Positions 7,664 to 40,902 of a stretch of 64,000 nucleotides of DNA are shown piece by piece. How positions within the stretch are numbered: position 1 is the stretch's first letter; each line of letters opens with the position of its first letter. This DNA comes from Candidatus Fraserbacteria bacterium. GTDB taxonomy: Bacteria; Bipolaricaulota; Bipolaricaulia; RBG-16-55-9; JANLFV01. Position numbers and translations under genes: made by a program. The DNA lies in assembly GCA_037446135.1 (NCBI GenBank), contig JBBIJD010000001.1:27156-91155 (forward strand). The letters run 5' to 3'. Under the pieces are notes generated by a model that searched no databases, was not told the origin of the DNA, and was given only the letters and a program-made list of their open reading frames with translations.

Positions 7664-8980
7664 ATGATAGAGGTTCAAGAGTCCAAGGCCTCGGAGGCTA
7701 CGATAGTCGAGGCCGTGCCAGCGGCAAGCGTCAACCCCTATGAGATGGTCCTCACCCAGTTGAGGCTGGTGGCCGCGCGGCTCGAGCTGGAGCCGGGGCT
7801 CCTCGCGATCCTCTCCCATCCGGAGCGGGTCCTGGAGGTCTCCCTCCCAGTGAAGATGGATGATGGCCGGATCGAGGTCTTCACCGGCTATCGTGTCCAG
7901 CATAGCAGCGTCCGCGGCCCGTGCAAAGGGGGGATCCGCTACCATCCCGCCGTGACCCTCGATGAGGTGAAGGCCCTCGCCACCTGGATGACCCTGAAGT
8001 GCGCCGTGGTCAACCTCCCCTATGGCGGGGCTAAGGGCGGGATCAGATGCGATCCGACCCGGCTCTCATTGGGCGAGTTGGAGCGATTGACCCGCCGGTA
8101 TGCGGTGATGATCCGGCCGATCATCGGCCCGCAGAAGGACATCCCCGCCCCAGATGTGAATACCAACGCTGTAGTCATGGACTGGATCATGGACACCCTC
8201 TCCGTCTTCAGCGACTACTATACCGATGAGGTCGTCACGGGGAAGTCGATCGAGCTCGGCGGGGCCCAAGGTCGGCGGGAGGCGACCGGCCGAGGGGTGA
8301 TGGTCGTGACCAAGGAGATCCTCAAGCGGCTGAACCGCGACATCACCAAGACCACCGTCGCGGTCCAGGGCTACGGGAATGTCGGCTCCGTCTCGGCTAC
8401 ATTGCTCGCCCGCGAGGGCTGCCGCGTCGTGGGGGTGAGCGATATCTCCACCGGGCTCTATAACCCCAATGGATTGAATATCGCCGAGATCAACGAGTAT
8501 GTGGCCCAATCCCCCGGCCATCTCCTCAAGGGCTACTCCGCCCCGGGGGTCGAGGAGATCACCAACCAGGAGCTCCTGGCCCTCGATGTCGATGTGCTCG
8601 TCCCGGCGGCCCTCGAGGCGCAGATCACCGCTGAGAATGCCGGCTCAGTCCGGGCCAAGATCATCGTCGAAGGGGCCAACGGGCCGACGACCCCGGAGGC
8701 CGATGTGATCCTAGCGGAGAAGGGGGTCTACATCGTGCCGGACATCCTGGCGAACGCCGGCGGAGTGGTCGTCTCCTACTTCGAGTGGGTTCAGGACCTC
8801 CAGTCCTTCTTCTGGGACGAGGAGGAGACGAACCAGAAGCTCGCGAAGATCATGCAGCAGAGCTTCGCCGAGGTCTGGACCCTGGCCCATCTTGAGGGGG
8901 TCTCGCTCCGGATGGCGGCCCTGATGCTCGGCGTCCGGCGGGTGGCCCAGGCGATCAAGAAGCGGGGGATCTTCCCCTAA
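7664..8980 (+). CDS. gdhA: Glutamate dehydrogenase (Glu/Leu/Phe/Val dehydrogenase family), paralog 1
   Basis: 438 aa. Catalytic Lys motif GPCKGGIRYHP, NLPYGGAKGG, and NAD(P) Rossmann GYGNVGS. Confidence 0.95.
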   Translation: MIEVQESKASEATIVEAVPAASVNPYEMVLTQLRLVAARLELEPGLLAILSHPERVLEVSLPVKMDDGRIEVFTGYRVQHSSVRGPCKGGIRYHPAVTLDEVKALATWMTLKCAVVNLPYGGAKGGIRCDPTRLSLGELERLTRRYAVMIRPIIGPQKDIPAPDVNTNAVVMDWIMDTLSVFSDYYTDEVVTGKSIELGGAQGRREATGRGVMVVTKEILKRLNRDITKTTVAVQGYGNVGSVSATLLAREGCRVVGVSDISTGLYNPNGLNIAEINEYVAQSPGHLLKGYSAPGVEEITNQELLALDVDVLVPAALEAQITAENAGSVRAKIIVEGANGPTTPEADVILAEKGVYIVPDILANAGGVVVSYFEWVQDLQSFFWDEEETNQKLAKIMQQSFAEVWTLAHLEGVSLRMAALMLGVRRVAQAIKKRGIFP

Positions 8981-19436: not shown

Positions 19437-19958
19437 CTAGGCGCTCGTCAGGGTGTAGACGATCTGGAGGGTATAGCTCCCCGGTGGGTCCTCTTCCCAG
19501 GCGAGGAGGACCCTGAAATGGGTATTCACGAGGATATTATTCCCTCTATTCCCCGCGGCCACCTGGACTTCGTTGATGGTCATCCCGGTATAGTCGGGCT
19601 GGGTCGCGGTCACTCGCGGGTCGGTGGAGGAGGACTTCCACTCCAGATCTTCACAGGGCTTATTCGGGTCCGGCCAAGTCCCAGTGTAAGTCCAAGTCGG
19701 GGCTGTGGCCCAGACATTGACCTGCCAGTTGACATTGCTCCTGACTTTGAGCGTCTGGGCGGGAGAGATCTCCTTATAGCCCCTCTCGTAGTCGTCTGCC
19801 GTCAGGTCCCCGAAGTCGACGAGATTGGGGTCCACCGTCAAGCGGAGAGCCGCTAGCGCGGTCGCTTGAACAGTCGTATTTTGGCTTGTCTGGGCCAAGC
19901 CCGCAAGGCCGAGGAGCAGAACCAAACCTGCTGCCAGAAGCCATCTCAATCTTGCCAT
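19437..19958 (-). CDS. Small secreted beta-rich protein, paralog A of a three-member family (pilin/SCPU-like or WxL-like C-terminal strand)
   Basis: 173 aa. Signal peptide MARLRWLLAAGLVLLLGLAGLAQT. Thr/Ser/Asn-rich. C-terminus PGSYTLQIVYTLTSA matches paralogs B (PGDYSITLEYTATSL) and C (PGDYHVTLTYTITTD). Confidence 0.8.
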   Translation of the reverse strand: MARLRWLLAAGLVLLLGLAGLAQTSQNTTVQATALAALRLTVDPNLVDFGDLTADDYERGYKEISPAQTLKVRSNVNWQVNVWATAPTWTYTGTWPDPNKPCEDLEWKSSSTDPRVTATQPDYTGMTINEVQVAAGNRGNNILVNTHFRVLLAWEEDPPGSYTLQIVYTLTSA

Positions 19959-19984: not shown

Positions 19985-20060
19985 GTGGCTTCGGCAGCCT
20001 GGCAGTCCGTGGAGGACCCACGGCTTTGCGCCCCCATGTCGCCATGGGTTCGCCTTTTCG
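19985..20060 (-). promoter_or_regulatory. GEMM-like (c-di-GMP-I class) riboswitch motif in the 5' UTR of paralog A
   Basis: RNA sense: AAGGCGAACCC-[CCCAUG GCGA CAUGGG]-GGCGCAAAGCC-[CCGUGG guccu CCACGG]...GGCUGCCGAAGCC. Shows the GEMM hallmarks GGCAAACC and GGRCGCAAAGCY around a P1 hairpin with a GNRA tetraloop, then P2. The same architecture occurs twice upstream of paralog C with compensatory changes in the P1 stem. Confidence 0.7.
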
Positions 20061-20075
20061 GTCCACTTAAACAAT

Positions 20076-20137: not shown

Positions 20138-20190
20138 TGACACCCATAAAATAAAGAGAGGCCCCGGGCTCGAGTCATGAGCCCGGGGCC
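20138..20190 (-). terminator. Rho-independent terminator after paralog B (perfect 10-bp GC stem plus T-tract on the minus strand)
   Basis: GGCCCCGGGC...GCCCGGGGCC stem at 20160-20190. On the minus strand it is followed by CTCTCTTTATTTTATGGG. Sits 20 nt after the stop of 20212..20754. Confidence 0.75.
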
Positions 20191-20211
20191 CCGAAATGAG
20201 CGACTAACCGG

Positions 20212-20754
20212 TTACAGAGAGGTTGCGGTGTATTCCAGGGTGATGCTGTAATCTCCGGGGATGTCCTGTTCGTCCGAGGTATACTTGTAGGCCATATGGA
20301 AGTAGGCCGCGCCCGGCTTCTCCCCGGTCCCGGCCTTCATCATCTGATTGAATCCCGGGAAGCTGACATAGCTCCCCTGGTAGCCGCTGACATTCCCCTC
20401 GACTTTGGCGACCTTCCAGGCGAAGTCAGCGAGGATGTCCCCTTCAAAGCCCGGAGGGGTGGTAGCCTCGACGGCCTGGACGGCCAGGACATAGCCGTTA
20501 TGGCAGTTGGTCCTGAGGGAGACGATGTTCCCTTCGGTGTCCTCTAGGATCTGATCCGGCCCGGTGATCGTCCCCAGGAAGACATCCTGGTGGACATTGA
20601 GGGTGATCCAACAGTTGGCATTCCAGTAGACCGTGGTCTTCCCGCCGTCCCCGGCCCCGAGGGAGATCGTCCCCCAGAGGGCCGCGATCGCTAATGCCGC
20701 GAGGGTCGCTACCTTCAGGGTCTTTCCTATTCTCTTCATCGGTGTTACCTCCAT
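20212..20754 (-). CDS. Small secreted beta-rich protein, paralog B
   Basis: 180 aa. Signal peptide (MKRIGKTLKVATLAALAIAALWG). C-terminal PGDYSITLEYTATSL. No riboswitch upstream; instead an 11-bp-periodic TGGAAr repeat array. Confidence 0.8.
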   Translation of the reverse strand: MEVTPMKRIGKTLKVATLAALAIAALWGTISLGAGDGGKTTVYWNANCWITLNVHQDVFLGTITGPDQILEDTEGNIVSLRTNCHNGYVLAVQAVEATTPPGFEGDILADFAWKVAKVEGNVSGYQGSYVSFPGFNQMMKAGTGEKPGAAYFHMAYKYTSDEQDIPGDYSITLEYTATSL

Positions 20755-20825
20755 CTTCTCTTCCTAGGTCAGGTTTCTGACCTTTCGTCTCGCCTCGGAG
20801 TTTAAGTCACCCCCGCTGGAGGGTC

Positions 20826-20878
20826 GATGGAAGCGGGCTGAAAAGTCGGAGGAAAGCGGCTGGAAATTCCATGGAAAT
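20826..20878. promoter_or_regulatory. Array of five direct repeats (T/A)G(G/A)AA(A/G) at exact 11-bp spacing; candidate OmpR-family response-regulator binding site upstream of paralog B
   Basis: GATGGAAG cgg GCTGAAAAG tcg GAGGAAAG cgg CTGGAAAT tcc ATGGAAAT. Repeat cores start at 20828, 20839, 20850, 20861 and 20872. A related 4-repeat array lies at 22182-22220. Confidence 0.55.
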
Positions 20879-20895
20879 CCCAGAGACTGGAGCTA

Positions 20896-22158
20896 TTAGG
20901 GCTTCTTAGCAGGGAGGGCCCTGGCCCCTCCGAGCCGCTTTGCCCGGTAGAGGGCCCGGTCGGCCTGCTCGATCAGCTCGTCCGGCGAGGCCCCGTCCTC
21001 GGGGAAGCCGGCCACTCCGGCGCTGAAGCTGGCCCTGAAGGGCTCGGATTGCTCAGGGGCTTGGAACCGCTGCTCATGGAACTCCCCTTGGAGCCTGGTC
21101 AGGGCCGCCACGGCCCGGGGCTTGATGGTCTCGGGGAGGATGAGGGCGAACTCATCCCCGCCGTAGCGGGCGGGTAGGTCGCTCTTCCGTCCCTTGGACT
21201 TGATGAGCTCGGCCAGGGCCTTCAGGACGGAGTCGCCCATCCGATGGCCATAGCGGTCGTTGATCGCCTTGAACCGGTCGAGGTCGAGGAGGGCCAGGGA
21301 GAAGACCCTTCCATACCTTCTGCTCCGCTCGAGGGTGCAGCGGAGCTTCTCCTGGAAGGCCCGGTGGTTGTAGAGCCCGGTCAGGCCATCGAGGTCCGCC
21401 AGCTCGGTGAGCACCCGGTTCCGCTCGAGCCGGGCGGCGATCCGGGCGATCAGCTCCTCAGGGTAGAACGGCTTAGTGATGTAGTCGTCCGCCCCGGCCT
21501 CCAGGCCCCGGACCTTGGTCGCCACATCGCCCCTCCCGGTGAGGAAGAAGATCGGGAGCTTCTGGAACTCCACCTCCCGGCGGAGGGAGGCGCAGAGCTC
21601 CAGTCCGGTCAGCTTCGGCATCTCGATGTCCAGGAGCAAGAGGTCCGGCTTGAACTCCCTCAGGGTTGAGAGCGCCTCCGTCGGGTCTTGCAAGGCCTTG
21701 GTGGCGAACCCCGCTTGGCGGAGATGCCCCCCGACGAGCTCCAAGAGGTGAGGATCATCATCGACGATCGCGATCCTCAAGCGGTCGCCTCCTCCCTTTG
21801 GCTCTTGCTCAAGCTCGAACTTGAGCCCAAGCGCCGCTTCGGCCCGCTGGAGCTCCTCCTCCAGCTCGCGAAGGAGGGCCCGGAGCCTTCCCAGTTCCGG
21901 GGCGGCCAGCGGCCTGTTCTGAAGCTGGAGGGCCTCTTCCATCTCCTGAGCCAGCTCGGAGAGCCGAGGGTAGCCGTAGGAGCCGCCGCTCCCCTTGAGC
22001 CGATGGGCCCGCTCCAAGAGGGCCGCCATGGGGGCTTCAGCCTGAGGATCGGCCTCGAGGTCATTGAGCAACTGTCCGAAGAGGTTGAGGGCCCCGCGGA
22101 CCTCCTCGAGGTAGAGCCTTCGCAAGCCCTCCAATCCTTCTTCCATAGGTTCCACCAT
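20896..22158 (-). CDS. Hpt-REC-GGDEF signalling protein (diguanylate cyclase with receiver and N-terminal histidine phosphotransfer domain)
   Basis: 420 aa. Hpt HxxKG motif (ERAHRLKGSGGSYG). REC (IAIVDDDP...LLLDIEMP...DDYITKPF). GGDEF with intact active site RYGGDEF and a putative I-site (RRYGRV...). Confidence 0.9.
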   Translation of the reverse strand: MVEPMEEGLEGLRRLYLEEVRGALNLFGQLLNDLEADPQAEAPMAALLERAHRLKGSGGSYGYPRLSELAQEMEEALQLQNRPLAAPELGRLRALLRELEEELQRAEAALGLKFELEQEPKGGGDRLRIAIVDDDPHLLELVGGHLRQAGFATKALQDPTEALSTLREFKPDLLLLDIEMPKLTGLELCASLRREVEFQKLPIFFLTGRGDVATKVRGLEAGADDYITKPFYPEELIARIAARLERNRVLTELADLDGLTGLYNHRAFQEKLRCTLERSRRYGRVFSLALLDLDRFKAINDRYGHRMGDSVLKALAELIKSKGRKSDLPARYGGDEFALILPETIKPRAVAALTRLQGEFHEQRFQAPEQSEPFRASFSAGVAGFPEDGASPDELIEQADRALYRAKRLGGARALPAKKP

Positions 22159-22181
22159 TGGGAAGGATAAGGCCCTCAGGC

Positions 22182-22220
22182 TGGAATATCGATGGAAGTG
22201 GGCTGGAAATCTGATGGAAG
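22182..22220. promoter_or_regulatory. Four TGGAA(T/G/A) direct repeats at 11-bp spacing upstream of the Hpt-REC-GGDEF gene
   Basis: cTGGAAT atc gATGGAAG tgg gcTGGAAAT ctg ATGGAAG. TGGAA cores at 22182, 22193, 22204 and 22215, located 25-65 nt upstream of the GGDEF start codon and just after the RR stop. Confidence 0.5.
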
Positions 22221-22227
22221 CGGGGGG

Positions 22228-22905
22228 CTACCCCGCCAACTTATACCCGAACCCGCGGACGGTGAGGATCAGTTCGGGGTTCTGCGGGTCCCGCTCGATC
22301 CGCTTGCGGAGGAGGTAAATGTATTTTTGCACATCGCCGGGGCGGGCGAAGCTGCTCCCCGGCCAGAGATGGTCGATGATCTCCCGATCGGAGAAGACCC
22401 TCCCCCGCTCTGAAGCTAAGAGGAGCAGGAGCTCATACTCCTTGGGGGAGAGGCTCACCACCTCTCCTCGGACCTGGACGGTCTTGCTCTTATCGTCGAT
22501 GGTGAGCGGCCCGACCTCAATGAGCGCCTCTTTCGGGGCCGCCCCGGCCCGCCGGAGGACCGCCTCGATCCGGAGGGCCACCTCCATGAGGTCGAACGGC
22601 TTCCTGATATAGTCGTCGGCCCCGAGGGTGAACCCCTGGATCGTATCTATCGGCGAGTCCCGGGCGGTGAGCATCAGCACTGGGGTGGAGCTGCCTTCCC
22701 GGATCCGCCGGAGCACCTCCCAGCCATCCATCCCCGGGAGCATCACATCGAGGAGGACCAGGTCCGGCCGCTCCTTAGCGAAGGCCTCCAGGGCCTTTGG
22801 GCCGTCCTCGGCGGTGAGGACCTCATACCCGCGGGAGCTGAGGAAGGCTCGGAGGAGCCTCAAGATATCAGGGTCGTCATCGACGAGGAGGATCTTCTTA
22901 GCCAT
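22228..22905 (-). CDS. OmpR-family response regulator (REC + winged-helix)
   Basis: 225 aa. KILLVDDDP...LVLLDVMLPGMDGW...DDYIRKPF, plus trans_reg_C (LSPKEYELLLLLASERGRVFSDREIIDHLW...TVRGFGYKLA). About 60% identity by eye to the second RR at 39014. Confidence 0.95.
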   Translation of the reverse strand: MAKKILLVDDDPDILRLLRAFLSSRGYEVLTAEDGPKALEAFAKERPDLVLLDVMLPGMDGWEVLRRIREGSSTPVLMLTARDSPIDTIQGFTLGADDYIRKPFDLMEVALRIEAVLRRAGAAPKEALIEVGPLTIDDKSKTVQVRGEVVSLSPKEYELLLLLASERGRVFSDREIIDHLWPGSSFARPGDVQKYIYLLRKRIERDPQNPELILTVRGFGYKLAG

Positions 22906-25075
22906 CCTGATCAGTCAGTCCTCCGTCCAGCCCGAGCTTGAGCCAGCTCTTGGAGAGCGGGAGCCTGACGGTGAACTTCGTCCCCGCATTCGGCTTGCTC
23001 TCGACCCTGATCTCCCCGCCGTGACGGTCGATCGTGGCCTTGACGATCGCCAGCCCCAGGCCGGTCCCCGTGGCCTCCCGGACATAGGGGTTGGTGGAGC
23101 GGAAGAACCTGGTGAAGAGCCGGCCGAGCTCCTCCGCGTCCATCCCGATCCCGGTATCCGTGACCTCGACGATCGCCTCCCCGGCCACGGTGTCGGCCCG
23201 GGCCCGGAGGCTCACCTTCCCCTCCTTGGTGTATTTGATGGCATTGGAGAGGAGGTTGGCGAAGGCCCGAGCGAGGTAGTCGGCATCACCTTTGACCTGG
23301 AGCCCTTCCTCCAGCTCGACCTCCAGGGCCAATCCCTTCTCCCGGGCATTGACGGCGAAAGTGGCGGCCACATCCCTCAAGATTTCGTCGAGCGCGAGGT
23401 CCCTTAGCTCGATCTTCCGCTCCCCCGACTCGAGCCGCTCGATGTCCAGGAGGTCGTTGACCAGTTTGGTCAGGCGGTCGGCGTTCCGGGAGATAACCTG
23501 GAGGAACTCCTCCTGGGCCGGATTGAGGGGGCCGGTCTCCCCGGCCAAGAGGAGGTCGGCATACCCTTTGATCGAGGTGAGCGGGGTCCGAAGCTCATGG
23601 GAGACGGTGGCGAGGAACTCGGCCTTCAGTTGCTCCAGTCGCTTCTGAGCGGTGATATCCCGCATCATCCCTTGATAGCCCACCAGCCGCCCCGCGCTGT
23701 CCTTGATGGCCACACTGATCTCGTGGACCGTCCTCATTGAGCCGTCCTTGTGCTTATACGCTAGTTCCATGTCTACATAGCCGTCCCGCGCCAGTCGCCG
23801 GTGGAACTCCTCCCGCTGGGCCGGGTCGGCATAATTCTCGCAGAGGTCCATCCGGATCAGCTCCTCTTCCCTGTAGCCGAGAAGCTTCCTCACCGCCGGG
23901 TTGACATCGACGAGTCGGCCTTGAGAATCGCAGACATAGATCACATCGGCGCTATTCTCGAAGAGGTTGCGGTAGCGCTCCCCTGAGCGGCGGAGTTCCT
24001 CCTCAGCTTGCTCGCGTCTAGCAAGCATCTCATTGATCGAGCGAGCCAGGCTCGCCAGCTCATCGCCCCCTTTGGAGGGGAGGCGGGCCGAGAGGTCGCC
24101 GCTCGCCGTGACCCGGCGGACAGCCCGCTCGAGTCGGGCCAGCTTAGCCAGGACACCCCTCTCGAGCAGGAGGAGGGCGGTGGCCGTGAAGACCAGGCCG
24201 ATGGTAGAGAGGGCCAACATGAAGTAGTTCAAGCTCGCCAGCCCTTGGCTGTAGATGGTCCGCGGGAGGTCCACCCTCAAGATGAGGGCCGGCTGGCCGT
24301 AGATATCTCGGAGCAGGGCATAGCCGGCGACCCGCTCCCGGTCGAGCCGCTGGACAGGGAGCGTCGTCGCCCCTGTCCCCGCTAAGAGGGCCGTGCGGGC
24401 CGCGGCGAAGGCCGGGTCTTCTAGGGCTAGTCCTGGCTCATCAACTCGCCGGAATGCTAGTGAGAGGTCCGTCAACTCCGCCAGTTGAGCGACCTTAGCA
24501 GCATCGAGGTAGCGGCCCATGATGAGCGAGCCCCGGCTCGGGCCGGTCTTCTCGCTGGTGAGGATCGGCCTGGCGGCCAAGAGGAGTGGCCCCTCCGCTA
24601 GAAGGAGGAGCCCAGTCAGCCCCTCTTTGGGAGGCTCCTCGCGGGGCCGGAGGAGCGGGCTCTCAGGGGTGAGACTGTTCAAGAGGCCCTCTGGGACTGG
24701 CACCTCCCTTCTCTCCTGGAGGTCGAAGGCCTTGGCGAAGACGATCCTCCCCGAGGAGTGGACGAAGACCATCAAGTTCAAGCCGAGCTCGCTGAAGGTC
24801 TGATCGACGAGGTTGGAGCGGATATACTCCGGATTGGCGTCCTCGATGAAGGCATAGGTATCGTCCCAACCGGCCCAATCGCCGACGAGGGCGCTCAGCT
24901 TGGCCTGGTCATCGGCTAGCGCGTTCAGGGTTCGCTCGACCTCCCTTCGGGTGGCCTGCTCTTCCAGGGCCAGGAAGCCCCCGAGGAAGAGCGACCGGAG
25001 GACGAGATACATGATGGCTACTGAGCAGAGGAGCACTGAGCCGATAGTGATCAGCGTCTTCTTCCGTAGGGTCAT
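22898..25075 (-). CDS. Sensor histidine kinase with extracytoplasmic sensor domain, HAMP, PAS, HisKA and HATPase_c
   Basis: 725 aa. N-terminal TM segment, ~270-aa periplasmic region, a second TM, HAMP-like linker, PAS (DVIYVCDSQGRLVDVNPAV), H-box (ATVSHELRTPLTSI), and N/G boxes (LSNAIKYT, DTGIGM, GTGLGLAIV). Confidence 0.9.
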   Translation of the reverse strand: MTLRKKTLITIGSVLLCSVAIMYLVLRSLFLGGFLALEEQATRREVERTLNALADDQAKLSALVGDWAGWDDTYAFIEDANPEYIRSNLVDQTFSELGLNLMVFVHSSGRIVFAKAFDLQERREVPVPEGLLNSLTPESPLLRPREEPPKEGLTGLLLLAEGPLLLAARPILTSEKTGPSRGSLIMGRYLDAAKVAQLAELTDLSLAFRRVDEPGLALEDPAFAAARTALLAGTGATTLPVQRLDRERVAGYALLRDIYGQPALILRVDLPRTIYSQGLASLNYFMLALSTIGLVFTATALLLLERGVLAKLARLERAVRRVTASGDLSARLPSKGGDELASLARSINEMLARREQAEEELRRSGERYRNLFENSADVIYVCDSQGRLVDVNPAVRKLLGYREEELIRMDLCENYADPAQREEFHRRLARDGYVDMELAYKHKDGSMRTVHEISVAIKDSAGRLVGYQGMMRDITAQKRLEQLKAEFLATVSHELRTPLTSIKGYADLLLAGETGPLNPAQEEFLQVISRNADRLTKLVNDLLDIERLESGERKIELRDLALDEILRDVAATFAVNAREKGLALEVELEEGLQVKGDADYLARAFANLLSNAIKYTKEGKVSLRARADTVAGEAIVEVTDTGIGMDAEELGRLFTRFFRSTNPYVREATGTGLGLAIVKATIDRHGGEIRVESKPNAGTKFTVRLPLSKSWLKLGLDGGLTDQDG

Positions 25076-25187
25076 CTATCTGCTTCTGGCCTCTCGGCCT
25101 GTATCGAGAAGGAATAATAAACCAATAAAGCCGGCCATTCAAGGCCGGCTATCCAACTCTGCTCTTACTCCTGGGCAAGCAGGGCTC

Positions 25188-25709
25188 TCAATCGGTGGTG
25201 ATGGTGTAGGTCAGGGTCACATGGTAGTCTCCCGGCCTATGATGCTCGCGGTCGAAGAGGATGAGGTAGTCCACCTCCACCTTTTGGCGCCCGCTCGGGC
25301 CATGAGCGATGACCTGATCGGAGTTGCTGACCGGGCGATAGGACTCGCTCCCCACGCGGAGCTGGAAGTCGCTGAGCGGCTTGGTGTAGCGGCCGTCATA
25401 GCTCCTTCCGAGGTCGGGCTCGGCGGCCCGGACCGCCAGCCTCCAGTGGACATTGCTGGCGGCGATGAGGGTGAGCGCCCTAGGGATCTCGCGGTAGCCC
25501 CGCTCCAGGTCCGCTTCGCTCGGCTGAGGGAGCACAAATGTCGTCGTGACGGCCTGGTCGGTCTGGCCCTCGAGTGAGAGGCGGGCGAAAGGGAGGACAG
25601 TCCAAGAGATCGTCGTCCTAGCGGAGTCACCTGTCCCTAGAGCCTGGGCACTGAGGAATAACGAGAGACCGAGAAGAAGCAAGCCGGAGATGACCGCTCT
25701 TCTTGCCAT
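25188..25709 (-). CDS. Small secreted beta-rich protein, paralog C
   Basis: 173 aa. Signal peptide MARRAVISGLLLLGLSLFLSAQA. C-terminal PGDYHVTLTYTITTD. Preceded by tandem GEMM-like riboswitch motifs. Confidence 0.8.
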   Translation of the reverse strand: MARRAVISGLLLLGLSLFLSAQALGTGDSARTTISWTVLPFARLSLEGQTDQAVTTTFVLPQPSEADLERGYREIPRALTLIAASNVHWRLAVRAAEPDLGRSYDGRYTKPLSDFQLRVGSESYRPVSNSDQVIAHGPSGRQKVEVDYLILFDREHHRPGDYHVTLTYTITTD

Positions 25710-25710
25710 C

Positions 25711-25790
25711 CTTCGGCAGCCCGGCGATCCCCGAGGGACCCGTAGCTTTGCGCCCCCACCTTGCGATGGGTTTGCCCTTATCGGGATGCG
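25711..25790 (-). promoter_or_regulatory. GEMM-like (c-di-GMP-I class) riboswitch motif, gene-proximal copy of a tandem pair
   Basis: RNA sense: AAGGGCAAACCC-[AUC GCAA GGU]-GGGGGCGCAAAGCUACGGG...GGGCUGCCGAAGG-AUG. The P1 stem CCCAUC/GGUGGG differs from the other copies (CCCGCC/GGCGGG and CCCAUG/CAUGGG) by compensatory changes, and all three loops are GNRA-type (GCAA, GAGA, GCGA). Confidence 0.7.
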
Positions 25791-25801
25791 TCCCTTCCTC
25801 G

Positions 25802-25905
25802 CCCTTCGGCAGCCCGGCTGCCCTTCACCTCCTTCCCCAATCAGCCAGTGTTAGGGCCCGTGGCTTTGCGCCCCCGCCTCTCGGCGGGTTTGCCCTTATC
25901 GGAGC
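25802..25905 (-). promoter_or_regulatory. GEMM-like (c-di-GMP-I class) riboswitch motif, distal copy of the tandem pair
   Basis: RNA sense: CCGAUAAGGGCAAACCC-[GCC GAGA GGC]-GGGGGCGCAAAGCCACGGGCCC...GGGCAGCCGGGCUGCCGAAGGG. Lies immediately downstream of the promoter at 25916-25945. Confidence 0.7.
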
Positions 25906-25915
25906 TCAGCGAAGG

Positions 25916-25945
25916 TATTATACACCGAGTGAGCGGGCTTGACAA
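25916..25945 (-). promoter_or_regulatory. Near-consensus sigma70 promoter (minus strand TTGTCA-17 nt-TATAAT) for the tandem riboswitch-paralog C transcript
   Basis: Minus-strand reading: ggcTTGTCAagcccgctcactcggtgTATAATacc. Overlaps the 3' end of the HD-GYP gene. Confidence 0.6.
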
Positions 25946-27471
25946 GCCCCTTCGGGCGGGGAAGGTCCTTTCGGGCTCAGATCCAGATTGTATCCCCTCT
26001 CGAAGAGCCGGAGGCAGGCCTCGCCAGCTTGGGGGTCGTAGAGCCGCCCCTTGTGCTTGGCGATCTCTCCCAAGGCCTCCTCGATGGCATGGGCCGGGCG
26101 GTAGGGCCGGTGAGAGGCCACCGCCTCCACCACATCGGCCACCGCTAGAATTCGGGCCTCGAGCATGATCTCTTCCCCCTTGAGCCCCCGGGGGTAGCCC
26201 GAGCCGTCGAGCCGCTCGTGGTGCTGGAGGACGATCTCAGCCACCGGCCAGGGGAAGTCGATCTGCCTCAAGACCTCATAGCCGGCCTGGGGATGGACCC
26301 GCACCAGCCCCAACTCGGCCGGATTGAGCCTCCCCGGCTTGCTCAGGATCTCCGCGGGGATATAGATCTTCCCGATGTCGTGGACCTGAGCGGCCATCCT
26401 GAGCCCGGCGATCCGGTCCTGAGGGAGGCCCATCTCCTGGGCGATCGCGCAGGCCAGCTCCGCCACCCGCCGCTGGTGCCCCGCGGTGTAGGGGTCCCGG
26501 ACCTCGACGGTGGTGGCGAGGACATCGACCATCTGCTCCAGGAGCCGCTCCAGCCGCTCATGACTCTCCCGGAGGGCCTCAAACAGCCGGAGGTTCTCCA
26601 AGGCCACAGCGGTGGCATTGGCCAAAGCCTCGAGGAGCTGGCAGTCCTCGGAGGTGAAGGCATTCAACTCCTGGCTCTCGGCGTTGAGGGCCCCGAGGAC
26701 CCGCTCCCCCGCCTTCAAGGGGACGCAGAGCTCAGAGCGGTTGGCGAACCGCCCCCCGACGAACCGTGGGTCCTTGGTCACATCCGGGAGGAGGATCATC
26801 TCCCCAGAGCGGGCCACGGCGGGGATGATCCCCCGCTCGCTAGCGAGGGGGAACTCCTCCGGGCCGGGGGGCCGTCCAAGAGTGTGGGCGACACAGATGA
26901 GCCGCTCGGCCTTCTCGTCCACTAGGAAGAGGCCGCAGTCCTCGAGCCCGAGGACCTCCCGGGCCGCCTCCACCGCCGCTTGGGCGATCTCCTCCTCGCT
27001 CCGGGAGAGGATCAACCTTCGGCCCAGGGCGTAGATCCCGGCCAGGCCCCGCTCGAGCCGCTTCCGCTCGGTGATGTCCCTCAGGATCGTCTGGAGGCCG
27101 ACGACCTTCCCCGCCTGCCTGATCGGGTTGCTCCGGTAGTCCGCGATCCTCGGCCCCTTGGGGGTGGTGAGCTCGATCTCCCCTTGGATCGGCTCCCCTC
27201 GGCTTATCCGGGCGAGCTCCTCGAGCAGCCGGGGATGGTAGCGCTCGGGGACGAACTCGAGCATATTCTTCCCGACCAGGTCCTCCTTGCGGAAGCCATA
27301 TTCTGCAGCGGCCCGGTTCACGGCCGTCACATTCCCTTCAAGGTCGAAGGTGACAATGACATCCCTAGCGTCCTCGAAGAGCTCGCGATAGGCCCCTTCC
27401 GCCCGCTCAAGCTCAGCCACCCGCAGCCGGAGCTGCTCGAGCTCTAACCCCTCTCGTGCCTCCGGTCTCAA
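25918..27471 (-). CDS. PAS-GAF-HD-GYP protein (c-di-GMP phosphodiesterase, HD-GYP class)
   Basis: 517 aa. HD motif (VHDIGKI) and HHERLDGSGYP (the GYP signature). N-terminal PAS and GAF regions. Confidence 0.9.
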   Translation of the reverse strand: MRPEAREGLELEQLRLRVAELERAEGAYRELFEDARDVIVTFDLEGNVTAVNRAAAEYGFRKEDLVGKNMLEFVPERYHPRLLEELARISRGEPIQGEIELTTPKGPRIADYRSNPIRQAGKVVGLQTILRDITERKRLERGLAGIYALGRRLILSRSEEEIAQAAVEAAREVLGLEDCGLFLVDEKAERLICVAHTLGRPPGPEEFPLASERGIIPAVARSGEMILLPDVTKDPRFVGGRFANRSELCVPLKAGERVLGALNAESQELNAFTSEDCQLLEALANATAVALENLRLFEALRESHERLERLLEQMVDVLATTVEVRDPYTAGHQRRVAELACAIAQEMGLPQDRIAGLRMAAQVHDIGKIYIPAEILSKPGRLNPAELGLVRVHPQAGYEVLRQIDFPWPVAEIVLQHHERLDGSGYPRGLKGEEIMLEARILAVADVVEAVASHRPYRPAHAIEEALGEIAKHKGRLYDPQAGEACLRLFERGYNLDLSPKGPSPPEGACQARSLGV

Positions 27472-36587: not shown

Positions 36588-37495
36588 AACTCCAACCTGA
36601 GCTGGAAGGTCTGGCTCCCTAGGCCGATCGGGGTGAGGACCGAGGCCGCGGAGAGCTCCAAGTCCCCGATGGTCGCGCCGATCCTGAATTCCCCCAGCCC
36701 GGTCGTGAATGAGGCCTCACTCACCAGGCTCAGCTCACCGGTGGAGGCGCTCAGCCGGATGATCTCCCTTGTGACCCCTTGGGGTCCGACCGCGATCCCG
36801 CTGGTGATGGAGATTGGCCCGAGCTCGAATTCGACCCCCAACCGCTCCTCAGTGATGACAAACCCTTCGGGGTTAACCTCCGTCTCGCTCCTGAGAGGCC
36901 CGGTGGTGAGTGTGAGGGTGATCTGATCGACATAGAAGTTGAGGTCTTTGTCCAGGGTGAGCCTGCTCCGGCCTCCGAGGAGGACCCCCGGGGCGAGGCG
37001 GAGATCCTCCAATTTGAGGACCAAATTCAATTCCTGGCCCTCGGGGAGTGGGGGGCCACCGAGCTTCTCCAGCATCAGGCCGATGAGGGCGGCGAAGAAG
37101 TCGAGCCTCGCCTCGAGCGCGGCGATGTTTCCAAATCCCAGGGAGAGCTCCGCTTCGGGTGAGCTCTCGCCCCAGCTCCAGAGGTCGAACGAGAGGCCGA
37201 GGCCCCAGAAGAGGGCATTCAGCTCGGTCGGCGGCCGGGGCTGGCCGAGGTCTGCCGCCCTTGTGAGGAAGGCCTCGATCTCCTTCACGGTCAGCAGCGT
37301 GGCCTGGAGGCTCAGGCCCTCTTTAGTTAGGTCGCTGATGAGCGGCCCGGTCGAGGGGACCTCGCTGCAGAGCGCGAGGTAGTTCAAGGAAGGACAGGGG
37401 AGGCCGAGGCTCAGCTCGCCGCGAGTCGAGCAGAATAAGAGTAGCAATAGGAGAAACAATCCGAACCCTCTCATGACGGAGCCCCCTCTTGCCAC
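36584..37495 (-). CDS. Secreted hypothetical protein
   Basis: 303 aa in the track. The internal Met of MRGFGLFLLLLLLFCST is probably the true start (signal peptide). No recognisable domain. Confidence 0.45.
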   Translation of the reverse strand: MARGGSVMRGFGLFLLLLLLFCSTRGELSLGLPCPSLNYLALCSEVPSTGPLISDLTKEGLSLQATLLTVKEIEAFLTRAADLGQPRPPTELNALFWGLGLSFDLWSWGESSPEAELSLGFGNIAALEARLDFFAALIGLMLEKLGGPPLPEGQELNLVLKLEDLRLAPGVLLGGRSRLTLDKDLNFYVDQITLTLTTGPLRSETEVNPEGFVITEERLGVEFELGPISITSGIAVGPQGVTREIIRLSASTGELSLVSEASFTTGLGEFRIGATIGDLELSAASVLTPIGLGSQTFQLRLEF

Positions 37496-37578
37496 TTTAG
37501 CACAATTGTAAGGGCCACAATTGGGGCTGTCAAGGGGCTTTGCCGGAGGGGCGCTATCTCTGTTAAACTTGAAAGAAG

Positions 37579-39033
37579 ATGAAGCGGCGGGGGTTCAGCC
37601 TGAGGTATAAGTTCGTCCTGACCTTGGTGGCCTTCACTTTCCTCCTCTCCGCCTCCTTCGGGGCCATCTCCCTCAAGCGGCTCTCCAGCGAGCTGGAGAG
37701 CCAGCTCCTCAAGGATGGGAGGGAGCTGGTGAACACCCTGGCTGAGCGGTTCGCCGACACTACGATCCCCTTCCTCACCTGGGCAGAGAACCTCCGCTTC
37801 CTCGCGGAGACCCTCGCGGTCTCGGGCGATGTGCTCTTCATCCAGGTCACGGTCGGCGGGCAGACCTACACCGCCCCAAGGCCGGGGCTGGAGGAGGTCC
37901 CCCCGCTCGAGGTGGGCCTCGCCACTGAGGGGGCGGCCAGGCGGAAGCTGGCCGATGGGGTGAGCTACCTCGATGTCTGGGAGAGCCTCCCTTCGCGGCT
38001 GGTGATGACTGATGAGGGGATCAAACCGGCCCGGGGCTATGTGCGGGTCGGGCTCTCGTTCGCCCGGGTCCGGAGCGAGATCCGCCAAGAGCTGGGGGTC
38101 ATCGCCCTCGTCTCGCTTTGCTATCTCTTGATCGGGATCCTCGTGGCCTTCATCTTCTACGAGATGATCCTCGGGCCGGTCGAGGAGCTATCCGCCTCAG
38201 TGAGGCGGTTCCGGGTCGATCGGCAGGCCCGGGCACCCGTCAAGGGGAGCGATGAGCTGGCCCTCCTCGCGGAGGAGTTCAACAAGATGGCCGAGGCGAT
38301 CGCCGAGCGGGACGCGCGGCTCAGCGAAGCCAACCGGGTGAAGTCCGAATTCCTGGCGATAATGGGGCACGAGCTTTTGACTCCGCTCCACGCGATCCGG
38401 GGGTTCTCCCAGCTCCTCCTTGAGGGGATCGAGGGGCCTCTGACCGCCAAGCAAAGGGAGGACATCGAGGCAATCCTTTCCTCGGGGAATCATCTTCTCG
38501 AGCTGATCGAGAACATCCTGAGGTTCTCCAAGCTCGAGGCGGGTGAGGAGCGGCTCCACCTTGAGGAGGTCGAGTCGACCGGGCTAGTGGCCGAGGTGGT
38601 CCAGAGCTTCGAGCGGTTCGCCCAGGAGCGCGGGCTCCGGCTGGAATCGCGGGTCGAGCCCTTCCTCCTCCAGGCCGATCGGACGAAGCTCCGCCAAGTC
38701 CTGATGAACCTGGTGAATAATGCGTTGAAGTATACCGAGCATGGGAGGATCGAGATCGAGGCCGCGATGGCGGACGGCCAGGCCTGCTTTACCGTCGCGG
38801 ACACGGGCCGGGGGATCCCACCAGAGTATCAGGCGAAGGTCTTCGAGCCCTTCACTCAGGTCGACTCTTCCGATCGGAGGGAAGCGATGGGGATCGGATT
38901 GGGGCTGGCGATCGTCAAGAAGTATGTCGAGCTCCATGGCGGGCGGGTCTGGCTGGAGAGCGAGCTAGGGAAGGGGACGAAGTTCCATTTCACCATCCCT
39001 CAGGGGGTAGGCCATGCGGATCTTGGTCGCTGA
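37579..39033 (+). CDS. Sensor histidine kinase (two TM segments, HAMP, HisKA, HATPase_c)
   Basis: 484 aa. H-box LAIMGHELLTPLHAI, N-box LVNNALKYT, G-boxes DTGRGI and GIGLGLAIV. Confidence 0.95.
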   Translation: MKRRGFSLRYKFVLTLVAFTFLLSASFGAISLKRLSSELESQLLKDGRELVNTLAERFADTTIPFLTWAENLRFLAETLAVSGDVLFIQVTVGGQTYTAPRPGLEEVPPLEVGLATEGAARRKLADGVSYLDVWESLPSRLVMTDEGIKPARGYVRVGLSFARVRSEIRQELGVIALVSLCYLLIGILVAFIFYEMILGPVEELSASVRRFRVDRQARAPVKGSDELALLAEEFNKMAEAIAERDARLSEANRVKSEFLAIMGHELLTPLHAIRGFSQLLLEGIEGPLTAKQREDIEAILSSGNHLLELIENILRFSKLEAGEERLHLEEVESTGLVAEVVQSFERFAQERGLRLESRVEPFLLQADRTKLRQVLMNLVNNALKYTEHGRIEIEAAMADGQACFTVADTGRGIPPEYQAKVFEPFTQVDSSDRREAMGIGLGLAIVKKYVELHGGRVWLESELGKGTKFHFTIPQGVGHADLGR

Positions 39034-39688
39034 GGACGATCCCTCCTCAAGGGAGCTCCTCCGCCGCTTCCTGGAGTCGAAGGGGCATGAGGTCCTCCAA
39101 GCCGCGAACGGCACGGAGGCCCTCGAGCGGTTCACGGCCAGCGGGGCCGACCTCATCCTCCTCGATGTGATGATGCCCAAGCTCGACGGTTGGACGGTCT
39201 TAAGGGAGATCCGGAAGGACTCCTCCGTCCCGGTGATCATGGTTACAGTGAAAGACGCCACAGAGGACAAGGTCCGGGGATTGGAGCTCGGAGCCGACGA
39301 CTATGTGACGAAGCCATTCGACCTCCGGGAACTGGAGGCCCGGATTGCAGCGGTGATGCGTCGGGTCGCCCCAGGCCCACTGATCGAGGTCGGGGAGCTT
39401 TCAATCGACGATGAGAAGAAGGAGGTCCGGCTCCGGGGGGAGCCGATCGAGCTCTCCCCCAAGGAGTATGATCTCCTGAGGCTGCTCGCCTCCAGGCCGG
39501 GGAAGGTCTTCTCCCACCGGGAGATCCTGGAGAAGATCTGGGCAGGGAGCGAGTTCGCCTCCTCTGAGGATGTCAAGAAATACATCTACCTACTGCGGAA
39601 TAAGATCGAGGAGGACCCGGAAGAGCCGAGGCTCATCCTGACTGTCCGCGGCTTCGGCTATAAGCTGGCGGTGGAGGCGAGGCCCTAG
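39014..39688 (+). CDS. OmpR-family response regulator
   Basis: 224 aa. RILVAEDDP...LILLDVMMPKLDGW...DDYVTKPF, plus winged-helix (LSPKEYDLLRLLASRPGKVFSHREILEKIW...TVRGFGYKLA). Paralog of the RR at 22228. Confidence 0.95.
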   Translation: MRILVAEDDPSSRELLRRFLESKGHEVLQAANGTEALERFTASGADLILLDVMMPKLDGWTVLREIRKDSSVPVIMVTVKDATEDKVRGLELGADDYVTKPFDLRELEARIAAVMRRVAPGPLIEVGELSIDDEKKEVRLRGEPIELSPKEYDLLRLLASRPGKVFSHREILEKIWAGSEFASSEDVKKYIYLLRNKIEEDPEEPRLILTVRGFGYKLAVEARP

Positions 39689-39694: not shown

Positions 39695-40633
39695 ATGCGC
39701 CCGAATAGGCTTAGGCTGAGACTCTGGCTCAAGGAGGCGCGAGCCCCATTCCTCCTCCTCTCGCTGGTCCTCGCCCCGATCGGGCCGCTCGCCGCGAGGT
39801 GGGAGAGCGGCCGCTTCTCGGGGGGCAGGCTGCTGTGGACCGCCCTGGGGCTCCTCTTGGCCCACATCTCCGTCAATCTCTTCAATGAATACTTCGACTA
39901 TAAGAGTGGGATAGATCTTAAGACCTTGAGGACCCCCTTCAGCGGCGGGAGCGGGGTCCTCTCCAGCGGCCTCCTCCGCCCAGAGGAGGTCTATCGGCTC
40001 GGACTGGCGACACTAGCGGGGGCCTTTGGGATCGGGCTGTATCTCACGATCCTCTCCGGGCCGCTCCTCTTGAGCCTGATCTTCGCTGGGGGGATGATAA
40101 TCTATTTCTACACCACACATCTCGCCCGCTGGGGCCTCGGCGAGCTCGCCGCCGGGCTGGGGCTGGGGAGCCTCCCGGTCCTGGGGGCCTACTTCGTCCA
40201 GACCGGCCAATTCACCCCCGTTGCGGGAGTCGCTTCCCTCGCCCCGGGCTTCCTCACGGCCAACCTCCTCTTGCTGAATGAGTTTCCCGATGCCGAAGCC
40301 GACCGGCAGGGCGGCCGGGCCCATCTGGTGATCCTGCTCGGGAGAAGAAGGGCAGCCTACATCTATGTCACCCTGCTCCTTGCGACCTATCTTGCGATAG
40401 GCGTGAGCGTGGCCTTAAGGGCGATGCCCCGCTGGTGCCTGCTCGCCTTCCTCACCCTCCCGCTGGCCTGGCGGGCTGGAAGGACGGCCCTCAAGTGCTA
40501 TAACGACCTCCCCAAGCTGATCCCCGCCCTGGCGGCTAATGTCCTGACCATCCTTGGGACCGATCTTTTGCTCAGCCTGGGCTACCTCCTGGCTGGGCCG
40601 GCGCTAGCGGACGGGACCCTCATCACTAAGTGA
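39695..40633 (+). CDS. UbiA-family prenyltransferase (MenA-like)
   Basis: 312 aa, multiple TM helices, NEYFDYKSGID (NxxxDxxxD) and a second DAEAD-containing loop. Confidence 0.8.
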   Translation: MRPNRLRLRLWLKEARAPFLLLSLVLAPIGPLAARWESGRFSGGRLLWTALGLLLAHISVNLFNEYFDYKSGIDLKTLRTPFSGGSGVLSSGLLRPEEVYRLGLATLAGAFGIGLYLTILSGPLLLSLIFAGGMIIYFYTTHLARWGLGELAAGLGLGSLPVLGAYFVQTGQFTPVAGVASLAPGFLTANLLLLNEFPDAEADRQGGRAHLVILLGRRRAAYIYVTLLLATYLAIGVSVALRAMPRWCLLAFLTLPLAWRAGRTALKCYNDLPKLIPALAANVLTILGTDLLLSLGYLLAGPALADGTLITK

Positions 40634-40846: not shown

Positions 40847-40902
40847 CCTAGCTCGGCTTGACGATCGTCCTCATCGCTAGCTAGAATCCGGGCGGGTCGA
40901 AA

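What the first reader, a model, noticed from the sequence alone, without database searches (positions are those of the whole stretch)
20826..20878. Five direct repeats of (T/A)G(G/A)AA(A/G) at exactly 11-bp spacing upstream of the riboswitch-less paralog
GATGGAAGcggGCTGAAAAGtcgGAGGAAAGcggCTGGAAATtccATGGAAAT has repeat cores beginning at 20828, 20839, 20850, 20861 and 20872. One helical turn between identical half-sites on the same DNA face is the classic binding mode of OmpR/PhoB-type winged-helix response regulators. An OmpR-type RR and its kinase are encoded ~1.4 kb away on the same strand. This paralog therefore appears to be under two-component transcriptional control, while its two siblings use riboswitches.
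Basis: seen in the sequence. Interest (0 to 1): 0.7.

Follow-up and report, generated by a model that had tools for sequence, protein, structure and literature searches.

The report
Response-regulator binding-site array in a promoter
The 11-bp repeats are real and conserved. They look like the docking sites of a neighbouring two-component regulator that switches on a c-di-GMP synthase gene and one fibre-like surface-protein gene; this is an ordinary kind of bacterial switch, newly seen in an uncultured phylum.

Summary
All genes here are on the minus strand, where the repeat reads nnT-TTCCA(T/G)C-n. There are six 11-bp units (20814-20879), not five. They are followed at a fixed distance by a -10-like hexamer (TAAACT, 20799-20804) and there is no -35 hexamer.

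A second array of four perfect units (22179-22222) sits between the stop codon of the OmpR-type regulator gene and the Hpt-REC-GGDEF gene, with the same geometry (TATCCT, 22164-22169). These are the only two such arrays in the 64 kb. The six-unit score is 54.7 bits, against -1.6 for the best of 200 shuffles.

In related Bipolaricaulota contigs the TTCCA cores stay in phase while the spacers drift (Fisher p = 0.0008). The array plus TAnnnT layout recurs upstream of Hpt-REC-GGDEF genes only 43-44% identical in protein.

In a distant relative, the homologue of the riboswitch-less paralog carries tandem c-di-GMP riboswitches instead of an array.

Best reading: a PHO-box-like operator for an OmpR/PhoB-family regulator, most likely the adjacent one, forming activator-dependent promoters. 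Binding itself is untested. This is a new member of a known kind, of moderate interest.

The parts
20814..20879 (-). Array 1: six 11-bp direct-repeat units (GATTTCCATGG AATTTCCAGCC GCTTTCCTCCG ACTTTTCAGCC CGCTTCCATCG ACCCTCCAGCG). This is three 22-bp boxes. Units 1, 2 and 5 have perfect TTCCA cores; units 3, 4 and 6 each have one core mismatch.
   Evidence: 54.7 bits vs shuffle maximum -1.6. Conserved in L082-L091. Same register as the other arrays.
20799..20804 (-). -10-like hexamer TAAACT of the inferred activator-dependent promoter of paralog 2. It starts 11 nt after the CCAG of the last unit. There is no -35 hexamer.
   Evidence: Invariant in three lineages. TAnnnT sits at the identical register in all ten arrays examined. 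No canonical sigma-70 promoter is found here.
20767..20782 (-). Hairpin GGTCAGAAACCTGACC in the inferred 5' UTR of paralog 2. Probably not essential.
   Evidence: Seen in the sequence. Partly deleted in the L085-L091 lineage. The whole region shows no significant folding (z = -0.74).
20212..20739 (-). Paralog 2: a secreted 175-aa beta-sandwich protein with no riboswitch. The start at ATG 20739 is preceded by GGAGG at 20748-20752. The ORF list's ATG 20754 overlaps that Shine-Dalgarno sequence.
   Evidence: no Pfam match; weak TasA/pilin-like fold matches.
20158..20192 (-). Intrinsic terminator after paralog 2 (14-pair stem followed by a T run).
22179..22222 (-). Array 2: four perfect units (CGCTTCCATCA GATTTCCAGCC CACTTCCATCG ATATTCCAGCC), i.e. 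two 22-bp boxes. It lies between the stop codon of the regulator gene (22228) and the GGDEF gene.
   Evidence: 55.2 bits. Conserved in five lineages with core columns variable 1/20 vs other columns 13/24, p = 0.0008.
22164..22169 (-). -10-like hexamer TATCCT of the inferred promoter of the Hpt-REC-GGDEF gene. The inferred transcription start is near 22157, giving a very short leader.
   Evidence: Same register as TATACT (L093), TATATT (L094), TATTAT (L092) and TAAAAT (L218, L219).
20896..22146 (-). Hpt-REC-GGDEF diguanylate cyclase gene. The conserved start is ATG 22146 (GGTGGA upstream), not 22158.
   Evidence: Pfam. The start codon is conserved. A 416-aa NCBI protein is 100% identical (P0129).
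22228..22905 (-). OmpR/PhoB-family response regulator (REC + winged-helix Trans_reg_C): the candidate binder of both arrays.
   Evidence: It is below every NCBIfam equivalog cut-off, so it is not an orthologue of any named regulator.
22898..25075 (-). Cognate sensor kinase (CHASE4-HAMP-PAS-HisKA-HATPase). It overlaps the regulator gene by 8 nt.
25114..25142 (-). Canonical sigma-70-type promoter (TTGAAT-17-TATTAT) in front of the kinase-regulator genes. The terminator of paralog 3 lies just upstream, at 25129-25150.
19989..20063 (-). Context: c-di-GMP-I-GGC riboswitch in front of paralog 1 (19437-19958).
25711..25903 (-). Context: two tandem c-di-GMP-I-GGC riboswitches in front of paralog 3 (25188-25709).

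Best explanation
The repeats are a protein operator built of 11-bp direct-repeat units. The consensus on the coding (minus) strand is nnT-TTCCATC-g: seven conserved and four variable positions. Units are paired into 22-bp boxes.

The phosphorylated OmpR/PhoB-family regulator encoded at 22228-22905 most likely binds each box as a head-to-tail dimer. That would be three dimers on array 1 and two on array 2, nucleating on the perfect units and spreading cooperatively over the weaker ones.

The promoter-proximal dimer sits where a -35 hexamer would be. It would recruit RNA polymerase to a weak -10 element (TAAACT or TATCCT), as PhoB and PhoP do at PHO boxes.

The CHASE4-HAMP-PAS kinase would thereby switch on two genes:
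(i) the Hpt-REC-GGDEF diguanylate cyclase gene;
(ii) the riboswitch-less secreted paralog.
The two sibling genes respond to c-di-GMP through riboswitches.

Shown here: the repeats, their statistics, their phase-conserved cores, the fixed -10 register, the absence of a -35 hexamer and of any RNA motif, and the genomic linkage to the regulator.

Inferred: binding, the identity of the binder, activation rather than repression, and the transcription start sites.
For: 1. Only two arrays exist in 64 kb. Both lie at the 5' ends of genes in the kinase-regulator neighbourhood and both are far beyond chance.

2. Across five lineages of array 2 (regulator 76-100% identical), TTCCA core columns vary in 1 of 20 positions and other columns in 13 of 24 (p = 0.0008). 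The 11-bp phase never shifts.

3. In all six lineages holding an orthologue at least 76% identical, the array begins within about 15 bp of the regulator gene's stop codon. This holds even where the upstream kinase architecture differs (L092, L093, L094).

4. In ten arrays, the last unit is followed by one 11-mer ending in TA, then NNNT. This places a TAnnnT hexamer at an identical register: TATCCT, TATACT, TATATT, TATTAT, TAAAAT (twice), TAAACT, TAGGCT. The arrays include those upstream of Hpt-REC-GGDEF genes only 43-44% identical in protein (L218, L219) and one upstream of a FIST-domain gene (L217).

5. The organism has canonical TTGnnn-17-TATAAT promoters elsewhere: before the kinase gene and before the riboswitches. 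The two array promoters lack a -35 hexamer.

6. Pooling 40 units gives T34 T35 C33 C33 A39 T27 C24 at positions 4-10 and mixed bases elsewhere. This is the 7+4 layout of PHO-box units (PMC4415409).

7. The regulator is a bona fide OmpR/PhoB member. Its closest solved relatives are RegX3, M. tuberculosis PhoP and MtrA. Only two OmpR-type DNA-binding domains are encoded in the window.

8. Precedents exist. Streptomyces PhoP operators have up to six 11-nt units, some degenerate, bound cooperatively (PMC2275107). Cryo-EM structures show 2, 4 or 6 PhoP protomers on one, two or three boxes, with the proximal box overlapping -35 (PMC11825685).

9. In L215 the 59%-identical homologue of paralog 2 is preceded by tandem c-di-GMP riboswitches. 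That contig shows neither an array nor the kinase-regulator-cyclase cassette.
Against: - No binding or expression data exist; the organism is an uncultured Bipolaricaulota MAG.
- The recognition helix DVxKYIYLLR is shared by this regulator, the window's second OmpR-type regulator (39014-39688, 59% identical) and a large group of 63%-identical homologues. Sequence alone cannot assign the binder.
- In L219 and L217 an array is present with no OmpR-type regulator on the stretch of contig held. In L218 the nearest such regulator is only 53% identical and is followed by a different array (TTTTCAC).
- The closest lineages (win, L082, L085) share 85-90% intergenic identity, so part of the conservation of array 1 is simply recent common ancestry (p = 0.05 for array 1 alone).
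- No terminator separates the regulator, GGDEF and paralog 2 genes, so the arrays also lie inside a possible read-through transcript.
- The -10 hexamers in the window are weak, and the inferred leader of the GGDEF gene is only about 11 nt.
Confidence: 0.68

Rival explanations
1. Same mechanism, different binder. The arrays are operators for another OmpR-type regulator, either the second one in the window (39014-39688) or one encoded elsewhere in the genome. The adjacent regulator would then act on other targets.
For: The recognition helices are nearly identical among the paralogous regulators. Arrays occur in L217 and L219 without an adjacent OmpR-type regulator, and in L218 the nearby regulator is followed by a different repeat, TTTTCAC.
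Against: In all six lineages, an orthologue at least 76% identical to the 22228-22905 regulator is immediately followed by a TTCCA array. No TTCCA array lies near the second regulator's operon. L217 and L219 are short or partial contigs, so absence of the regulator there is not informative.
Confidence: 0.15
2. The arrays are repressor operators. The regulator, or another protein, coats the -35 to -90 region and blocks transcription or read-through, rather than activating.
For: OmpR-family proteins can repress from similar sites (PhoP repression complex, PMC11825685). Read-through from the kinase promoter is possible because no terminator intervenes.
Against: Both promoters lack a -35 hexamer and have weak -10 hexamers, which is the signature of activator dependence. 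The proximal unit keeps a fixed register to the -10 element in ten arrays, which a roadblock would not need.
Confidence: 0.08
3. The repeats act in RNA. Either they are protein-binding UUCCA repeats in a polycistronic mRNA, or they form a GGA-rich CsrA-type sponge or antisense RNA on the plus strand.
For: There is no terminator between the genes, so the repeats are probably transcribed at some level. GGA motifs on the plus strand superficially resemble CsrA sites.
Against: No Rfam family matches at E <= 10. Neither strand shows significant folding (z = -0.74 and -0.21). All genes are on the minus strand. The strict 11-nt phase and the fixed distance to a TAnnnT hexamer are properties of double-stranded DNA and promoters. 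In the alignments made, substitutions and indels fall outside the cores and are not compensatory.
Confidence: 0.03
4. The repeats are a non-functional tandem repeat (replication slippage) or intrinsically curved DNA, with no specific binding protein.
For: An 11-bp period of T-rich tracts can bend DNA. Unrelated TTCCA-containing 11-bp minisatellites are common in metagenomes.
Against: The units are not identical copies: cores are conserved while spacers differ within and between arrays. The same core and register persist in lineages whose flanking proteins are only 43-44% identical. The T runs are only 2-3 bases long.
Confidence: 0.03

Closest known systems
Streptomyces coelicolor PhoP operators (PHO boxes made of 11-nt direct repeat units; Sola-Landa et al. 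2008, PMC2275107)
   Same: Both have 11-nt direct repeat units with 7 conserved + 4 variable positions and need at least two units. Complex operators have up to six units, some poorly conserved, filled cooperatively from well-conserved core units. Array 1 is exactly such a six-unit operator with strong and weak units.
   Different: The core sequence differs (TTCCATC here, GTTCACC there). The kinase is CHASE4-HAMP-PAS, not PhoR. The targets are a diguanylate cyclase and a secreted fibre-like protein, not phosphate-scavenging genes. Binding is not demonstrated here.
E. coli PhoB pho box and M. tuberculosis PhoP transcription activation complexes (PMC4415409, PMC4447250, PMC11825685)
   Same: A 22-bp box made of two 11-bp tandem repeats is bound head-to-tail. 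The promoter-proximal box replaces the -35 element. One, two or three boxes carry 2, 4 or 6 protomers. If the repeat is read as TTCCAGC, it ends 10 bp upstream of the -10 hexamer. From my own knowledge of the pstS promoter, not checked here, this is the classical pho-box distance.
   Different: The motif and the regulon differ. The regulator falls below the NCBIfam PhoB and MtrA equivalog cut-offs. Its recognition helix (KYIYLLR) is unlike PhoB's (VHIRRLR; my own alignment from memory).
SARP-family activators (heptameric direct repeats at 11-bp spacing abutting the -10 element) and the TorR tor boxes (four direct repeats). Both are cited from my own knowledge, not checked here.
   Same: OmpR-type winged-helix domains bind phased direct repeats next to a -10 element.
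   Different: No SARP (BTA domain) protein is detectable in the window. Only two OmpR-type DNA-binding domains are found, and both belong to classical receiver-domain regulators.

Membership tests
OmpR/PhoB-family response-regulator operator (tandem direct-repeat units) | Direct (not inverted) repeats with about 11-bp centre-to-centre spacing | tested here: met
   Six units in array 1 and four in array 2 are exactly 11 bp apart. The TTCCATGGAA palindrome at the distal end is not conserved (TTCCATAAAA in L082).
OmpR/PhoB-family response-regulator operator (tandem direct-repeat units) | Unit made of about 7 conserved + 4 less-conserved positions; units paired into 22-bp boxes | tested here: met
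   Across 40 units, positions 4-10 read T34 T35 C33 C33 A39 T27 C24 and the rest are mixed. TRF finds a 22-bp period in both arrays.
OmpR/PhoB-family response-regulator operator (tandem direct-repeat units) | Proximal box occupies the -35 region at a fixed distance from a -10 element; no canonical -35 hexamer | tested here: met
   TAnnnT lies at an identical register in ten arrays. The sigma-70 consensus scan finds promoters before the kinase gene and the riboswitches, but none at the arrays. Transcription start sites are not measured.
OmpR/PhoB-family response-regulator operator (tandem direct-repeat units) | A regulator with receiver + winged-helix (Trans_reg_C) domains is available, genomically linked to the sites | tested here: met
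   Pfam, PDB and NCBIfam matches. The array starts within about 15 bp of the stop codon of the orthologous regulator gene in six lineages.
OmpR/PhoB-family response-regulator operator (tandem direct-repeat units) | Sequence-specific binding by the phosphorylated regulator, and regulator-dependent transcription | not testable with these tools
   This needs mobility-shift or footprinting assays and in vitro transcription or reporter assays.
Pho regulon PHO box proper (PhoB/PhoP-PhoR) | CTGTCAT- or GTTCACC-type core, PhoR partner kinase, phosphate-acquisition target genes | tested here: not met
   The core is TTCCATC. The kinase has a CHASE4 sensor. The regulator scores 183.7 bits against the 296.2 cut-off for PhoB. 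The targets are a GGDEF protein and a secreted protein.
c-di-GMP-I (GEMM-I) riboswitch upstream of paralog 2 | Match to the Rfam covariance models RF01051 / RF03167 | tested here: not met
   No hit in 20650-21000 even at E <= 10. The siblings and the L215 homologue score 36-78 bits.
CsrA/RsmA-binding GGA-repeat RNA | GGA motifs presented in hairpin loops of a transcribed, structured RNA | tested here: not met
   The GGA motifs are on the strand antisense to all the genes. The plus-strand fold gives z = -0.21. No Rfam CsrB/RsmY/RsmZ-type hit.

The most novel reading that the evidence does not exclude
The arrays and the riboswitches form one two-tier circuit. The kinase-regulator pair directly turns on both a c-di-GMP synthase gene and one fibre-subunit-like gene through DNA operators. 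The c-di-GMP that is made then turns on the two sibling genes through riboswitches, giving a coherent feed-forward design.

In this lineage, an ancestral tandem riboswitch in front of paralog 2 was replaced by the protein-operated promoter when the kinase-regulator-cyclase cassette was inserted between paralog 3 and paralog 2.
Probability: 0.35. Interest if true: 0.55.

Novelty: new member of a known kind. Interest (0 to 1): 0.4.

Why it matters
No transcription factor or operator has, to my knowledge, been characterised in Bipolaricaulota (Acetothermia/OP1), an uncultured phylum.

This locus offers a ready-made, testable pairing of regulator and operator. It comes with a defined motif, a defined promoter geometry and two targets.

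It also connects a two-component system to c-di-GMP synthesis and to a family of secreted, possibly fibre-forming proteins. Those proteins are otherwise riboswitch-controlled.

The locus also gives a natural example of a riboswitch being swapped for a protein-dependent promoter on orthologous genes.

The mechanism itself is textbook, so the value is as an annotation and as an entry point for experiments, not as a new principle.

Tried and rejected
- **Genome scan.** The genome-contig scan with the GGDEF protein found no relative above 38% identity.
- **Metagenome scan.** None of the 80 loci encodes a homologue of the regulator, the cyclase or the paralog. It therefore says nothing about the regulon.
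- **Degenerate riboswitch or other RNA family in the gap.** Rejected.
- **RNA structure on either strand.** Rejected.
- **The TTCCATGGAA palindrome as an inverted-repeat site.** Rejected because it is not conserved.
- **A distinct repeat motif near the second regulator (37380-37600, 40600-40920).** Nothing convincing was found.
- **Look-up of the source contig through the 100%-identical protein P0129.** It returned nothing.
- **Autoregulation.** No box scoring above background lies upstream of the kinase gene.

Full report
**Setting**

From 15.5 kb to 27.5 kb every gene lies on the minus strand. In the direction of transcription the order is:

| Coordinates | Feature |
|---|---|
| 25918-27471 | PAS-GAF-HD-type gene |
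| 25711-25903 | two tandem c-di-GMP-I-GGC riboswitches |
| 25188-25709 | paralog 3 |
| 25129-25150 | terminator |
| 25114-25142 | canonical promoter |
| 22898-25075 | CHASE4-HAMP-PAS histidine kinase |
| 22228-22905 | OmpR-type response regulator |
| 20896-22146 | Hpt-REC-GGDEF diguanylate cyclase |
| 20212-20739 | paralog 2 |
| 20158-20192 | terminator |
| 19989-20063 | riboswitch |
| 19437-19958 | paralog 1 |
| further downstream | dockerin- and PKD/SdrD-domain surface proteins |

Source names on close homologues place the organism in Candidatus Bipolaricaulota/Bipolaricaulia.

**The observation**

Read on the coding strand, the region consists of six 11-bp units:

GATTTCCATGG AATTTCCAGCC GCTTTCCTCCG ACTTTTCAGCC CGCTTCCATCG ACCCTCCAGCG (20879 down to 20814)

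Tandem Repeats Finder also reports a 22-bp period, because TTCCAT and TTCCAG units alternate.

It has four perfect units:

CGCTTCCATCA GATTTCCAGCC CACTTCCATCG ATATTCCAGCC

This array lies in the gap between the stop codon of the regulator gene and the start of the cyclase gene.

All eight matches to TGGAA-N6-TGGAA (at most 1 mismatch) in the window fall in these two places. Only 2.3 matches are expected, and no shuffle reached 8.

A weight matrix built only from array 2 and its orthologues scores array 1 at 54.7 bits over six units. The next unrelated place in the window scores -30.7, and the best of 200 shuffles scores -1.6. Over four units the scores are 55.2 (array 2), 37.4 (array 1) and -9.8 (next best). 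In 829 kb of unrelated control loci the best four-unit score is 11.3 bits.

**Comparative evidence**

Orthologues of the regulator at 96, 93, 92, 85, 78 and 76% identity were found. After that there is a drop to about 63%, a group of paralogues.

Their contigs show the same gene order in the three closest lineages (L082-L091). In L092, L093 and L094 the upstream kinase architecture is different. L093 and L094 still have regulator gene, then array, then Hpt-REC-GGDEF gene; in L092 the array follows the regulator gene but the downstream gene is not identified (an about 800-bp gap with a run of Ns).

In five lineages of array 2:
- the four TTCCA cores keep their phase;
- core columns vary in 1 of 20 positions, against 13 of 24 for the other columns (Fisher p = 0.0008).

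For array 1 only three close lineages are available (2 of 30 against 10 of 36, p = 0.05). Units 1, 2 and 6 are invariant. Units 3 and 5 carry core changes in one lineage.

The decisive pattern is the register. In every array the last unit is followed by one further 11-mer ending in TA, and then NNNT. This places a -10-type hexamer at the same position each time:

| Locus | Hexamer |
|---|---|
| window, L082, L085 (array 2) | TATCCT |
| L093 | TATACT |
| L094 | TATATT |
| L092 | TATTAT |
| window array 1 | TAAACT |

The same layout, with six units, the core TTCCAT and the hexamer TAAAAT, stands upstream of Hpt-REC-GGDEF genes in L218 and L219. The proteins there are only 43-44% identical to the window's. 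Their distal unit pair (GATTKCCATGA AATTTCCATC) is almost identical to that of window array 1.

A further array (three perfect units, one weak unit, hexamer TAGGCT) precedes a FIST-domain gene in L217.

Pooling 40 units gives the consensus nnT-TTCCATC-g, with seven conserved and four variable positions.

**Promoter logic**

The simple sigma-70 scan finds good TTGnnn-17-TATAAT promoters before the tandem riboswitches (11 of 12 positions) and before the kinase gene (9 of 12). An extended -10 element (TGTATAAT) precedes the riboswitch of paralog 1. So this organism uses canonical promoters.

The two array promoters have no -35 hexamer and only weak -10 hexamers. This is what an activator-dependent promoter looks like when the activator occupies the -35 region.

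There is no terminator between the regulator, cyclase and paralog 2 genes. Low-level read-through from the kinase promoter is therefore possible, with the arrays acting as inducible internal promoters (inference).

The conserved start codon of the cyclase is ATG 22146. This implies a leader of only about 11 nt. In L094 the ATG lies 7 nt after the -10 hexamer, which suggests a leaderless message (inference).

**Who binds**

The adjacent regulator has receiver and Trans_reg_C domains. It resembles RegX3, M. tuberculosis PhoP and MtrA most closely among solved structures. It stays below every NCBIfam equivalog cut-off, so it is an unnamed OmpR/PhoB-family member.

Only two OmpR-type DNA-binding domains are encoded in the window. 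Linkage argues for the adjacent one. However, the recognition helix DVxKYIYLLR is shared by both and by the 63% group. The second regulator therefore cannot be excluded and should not be treated as a negative control.

**Alternatives**

- No Rfam family matches the gap even at E <= 10.
- Neither strand folds better than shuffled sequence.
- The GGA motifs lie antisense to all the genes.
- The distal palindrome is not conserved.
- Unrelated 11-bp minisatellites containing TTCCA exist in many metagenomes. They are perfect tandem copies in unrelated organisms and say nothing about this locus.

**What is known**

The layout is that of PHO-box-type operators:
- Two 11-nt units of 7+4 positions are bound head-to-tail (PMC4415409, PMC4447250).
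- Streptomyces PhoP operators have up to six units, some degenerate, filled cooperatively (PMC2275107).
- Cryo-EM structures show 2, 4 or 6 PhoP protomers on one to three boxes, with the proximal box displacing the -35/sigma region 4 contact (PMC11825685).

Arrays 2 and 1 correspond to the four- and six-protomer cases. This is not a PHO box proper: the motif, the kinase and the targets all differ.

**The regulated genes and the rewiring**

Paralog 2 belongs to a very small family, with only 8 clusters among 5.8 billion proteins. It is only 26-27% identical to paralogs 1 and 3, sharing mainly the C-terminal PGDY..TL.YT motif.

Its AlphaFold model is a confident beta-sandwich (pLDDT 83.5). It gives weak matches to the TasA fibre, an archaeal bundling pilin and chaperone-usher pilins. 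This hints at a donor-strand-type fibre subunit, but it is only a hint.

In L215 the 59%-identical homologue of paralog 2 is preceded by two tandem c-di-GMP riboswitches. That contig shows neither the kinase-regulator-cyclase cassette nor any array. So the array promoter in the window's lineage stands where a riboswitch stands elsewhere.

**Verdict**

The feature is a new member of a well-known kind of operator, found in a phylum with no characterised regulators. Interest is moderate.

Noticed in passing
window 22179-22222 (minus strand): A second, cleaner array of four perfect TTCCA units lies between the regulator gene's stop codon and the Hpt-REC-GGDEF gene.
   Followed up: yes
window 22146 vs 22158; 20739 vs 20754: The first ATG of each ORF is probably not the true start. 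ATG 22146 (GGTGGA upstream) is the one conserved in orthologues and matches a 416-aa NCBI protein. ATG 20739 is preceded by GGAGG, while ATG 20754 overlaps that Shine-Dalgarno sequence.
   Followed up: partly
L215 4899-4985, 5590-5733, 6818-6892: In a more distant relative, three consecutive small secreted-protein genes each carry c-di-GMP riboswitches (tandem ones before the paralog 2 homologue). A sigma-70-family factor gene lies just upstream. No kinase-regulator-cyclase cassette is present.
   Followed up: partly
L218 7990-8063 (minus strand): Another OmpR-type regulator (53% identical to the window's) is followed by six 11-bp units with the core TTTTCAC, and then a 183-aa secreted protein ending PGVYTGTIVVSVTDTTP. 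This is the same 'regulator, array, small secreted protein' design with a different motif.
   Followed up: partly
window 20212-20739; model m386f5d2cc0f9: Paralog 2 folds as a confident beta-sandwich. It weakly matches the TasA fibre (E = 5.6e-4, TM 0.41), an archaeal bundling pilin and chaperone-usher pilins, so it may be a donor-strand-type fibre subunit under c-di-GMP-related control.
   Followed up: partly
L094 1003-1027: The start codon of the Hpt-REC gene lies only 7 nt after the TATATT hexamer, suggesting a leaderless mRNA in that lineage.
   Followed up: no
L082/L084 about 7680-7694: A 7-bp insertion (GCTTCCA) just upstream of array 2 adds an out-of-phase partial unit in the lineage whose regulator is 96% identical.
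   Followed up: no
L093 1-1528; L092 2081-4065; L094 1-309: In the orthologues at 76-85% identity, the regulator is preceded by a single-domain receiver protein and a different kinase (hybrid, or MEDS-PAS). Together with the Hpt domain of the cyclase protein, this hints at a multi-step phosphorelay.
   Followed up: no
L095, L150, L162 (metagenome hits): GC-rich bacterial-looking contigs carry four 11-bp units of TTTTCCACAGS. These may be operators of unrelated OmpR-type regulators.
   Followed up: no
window 37500-37530: CACAATTG occurs twice, 15 bp apart, upstream of the second kinase-regulator operon. This could be an operator for that system.
   Followed up: no
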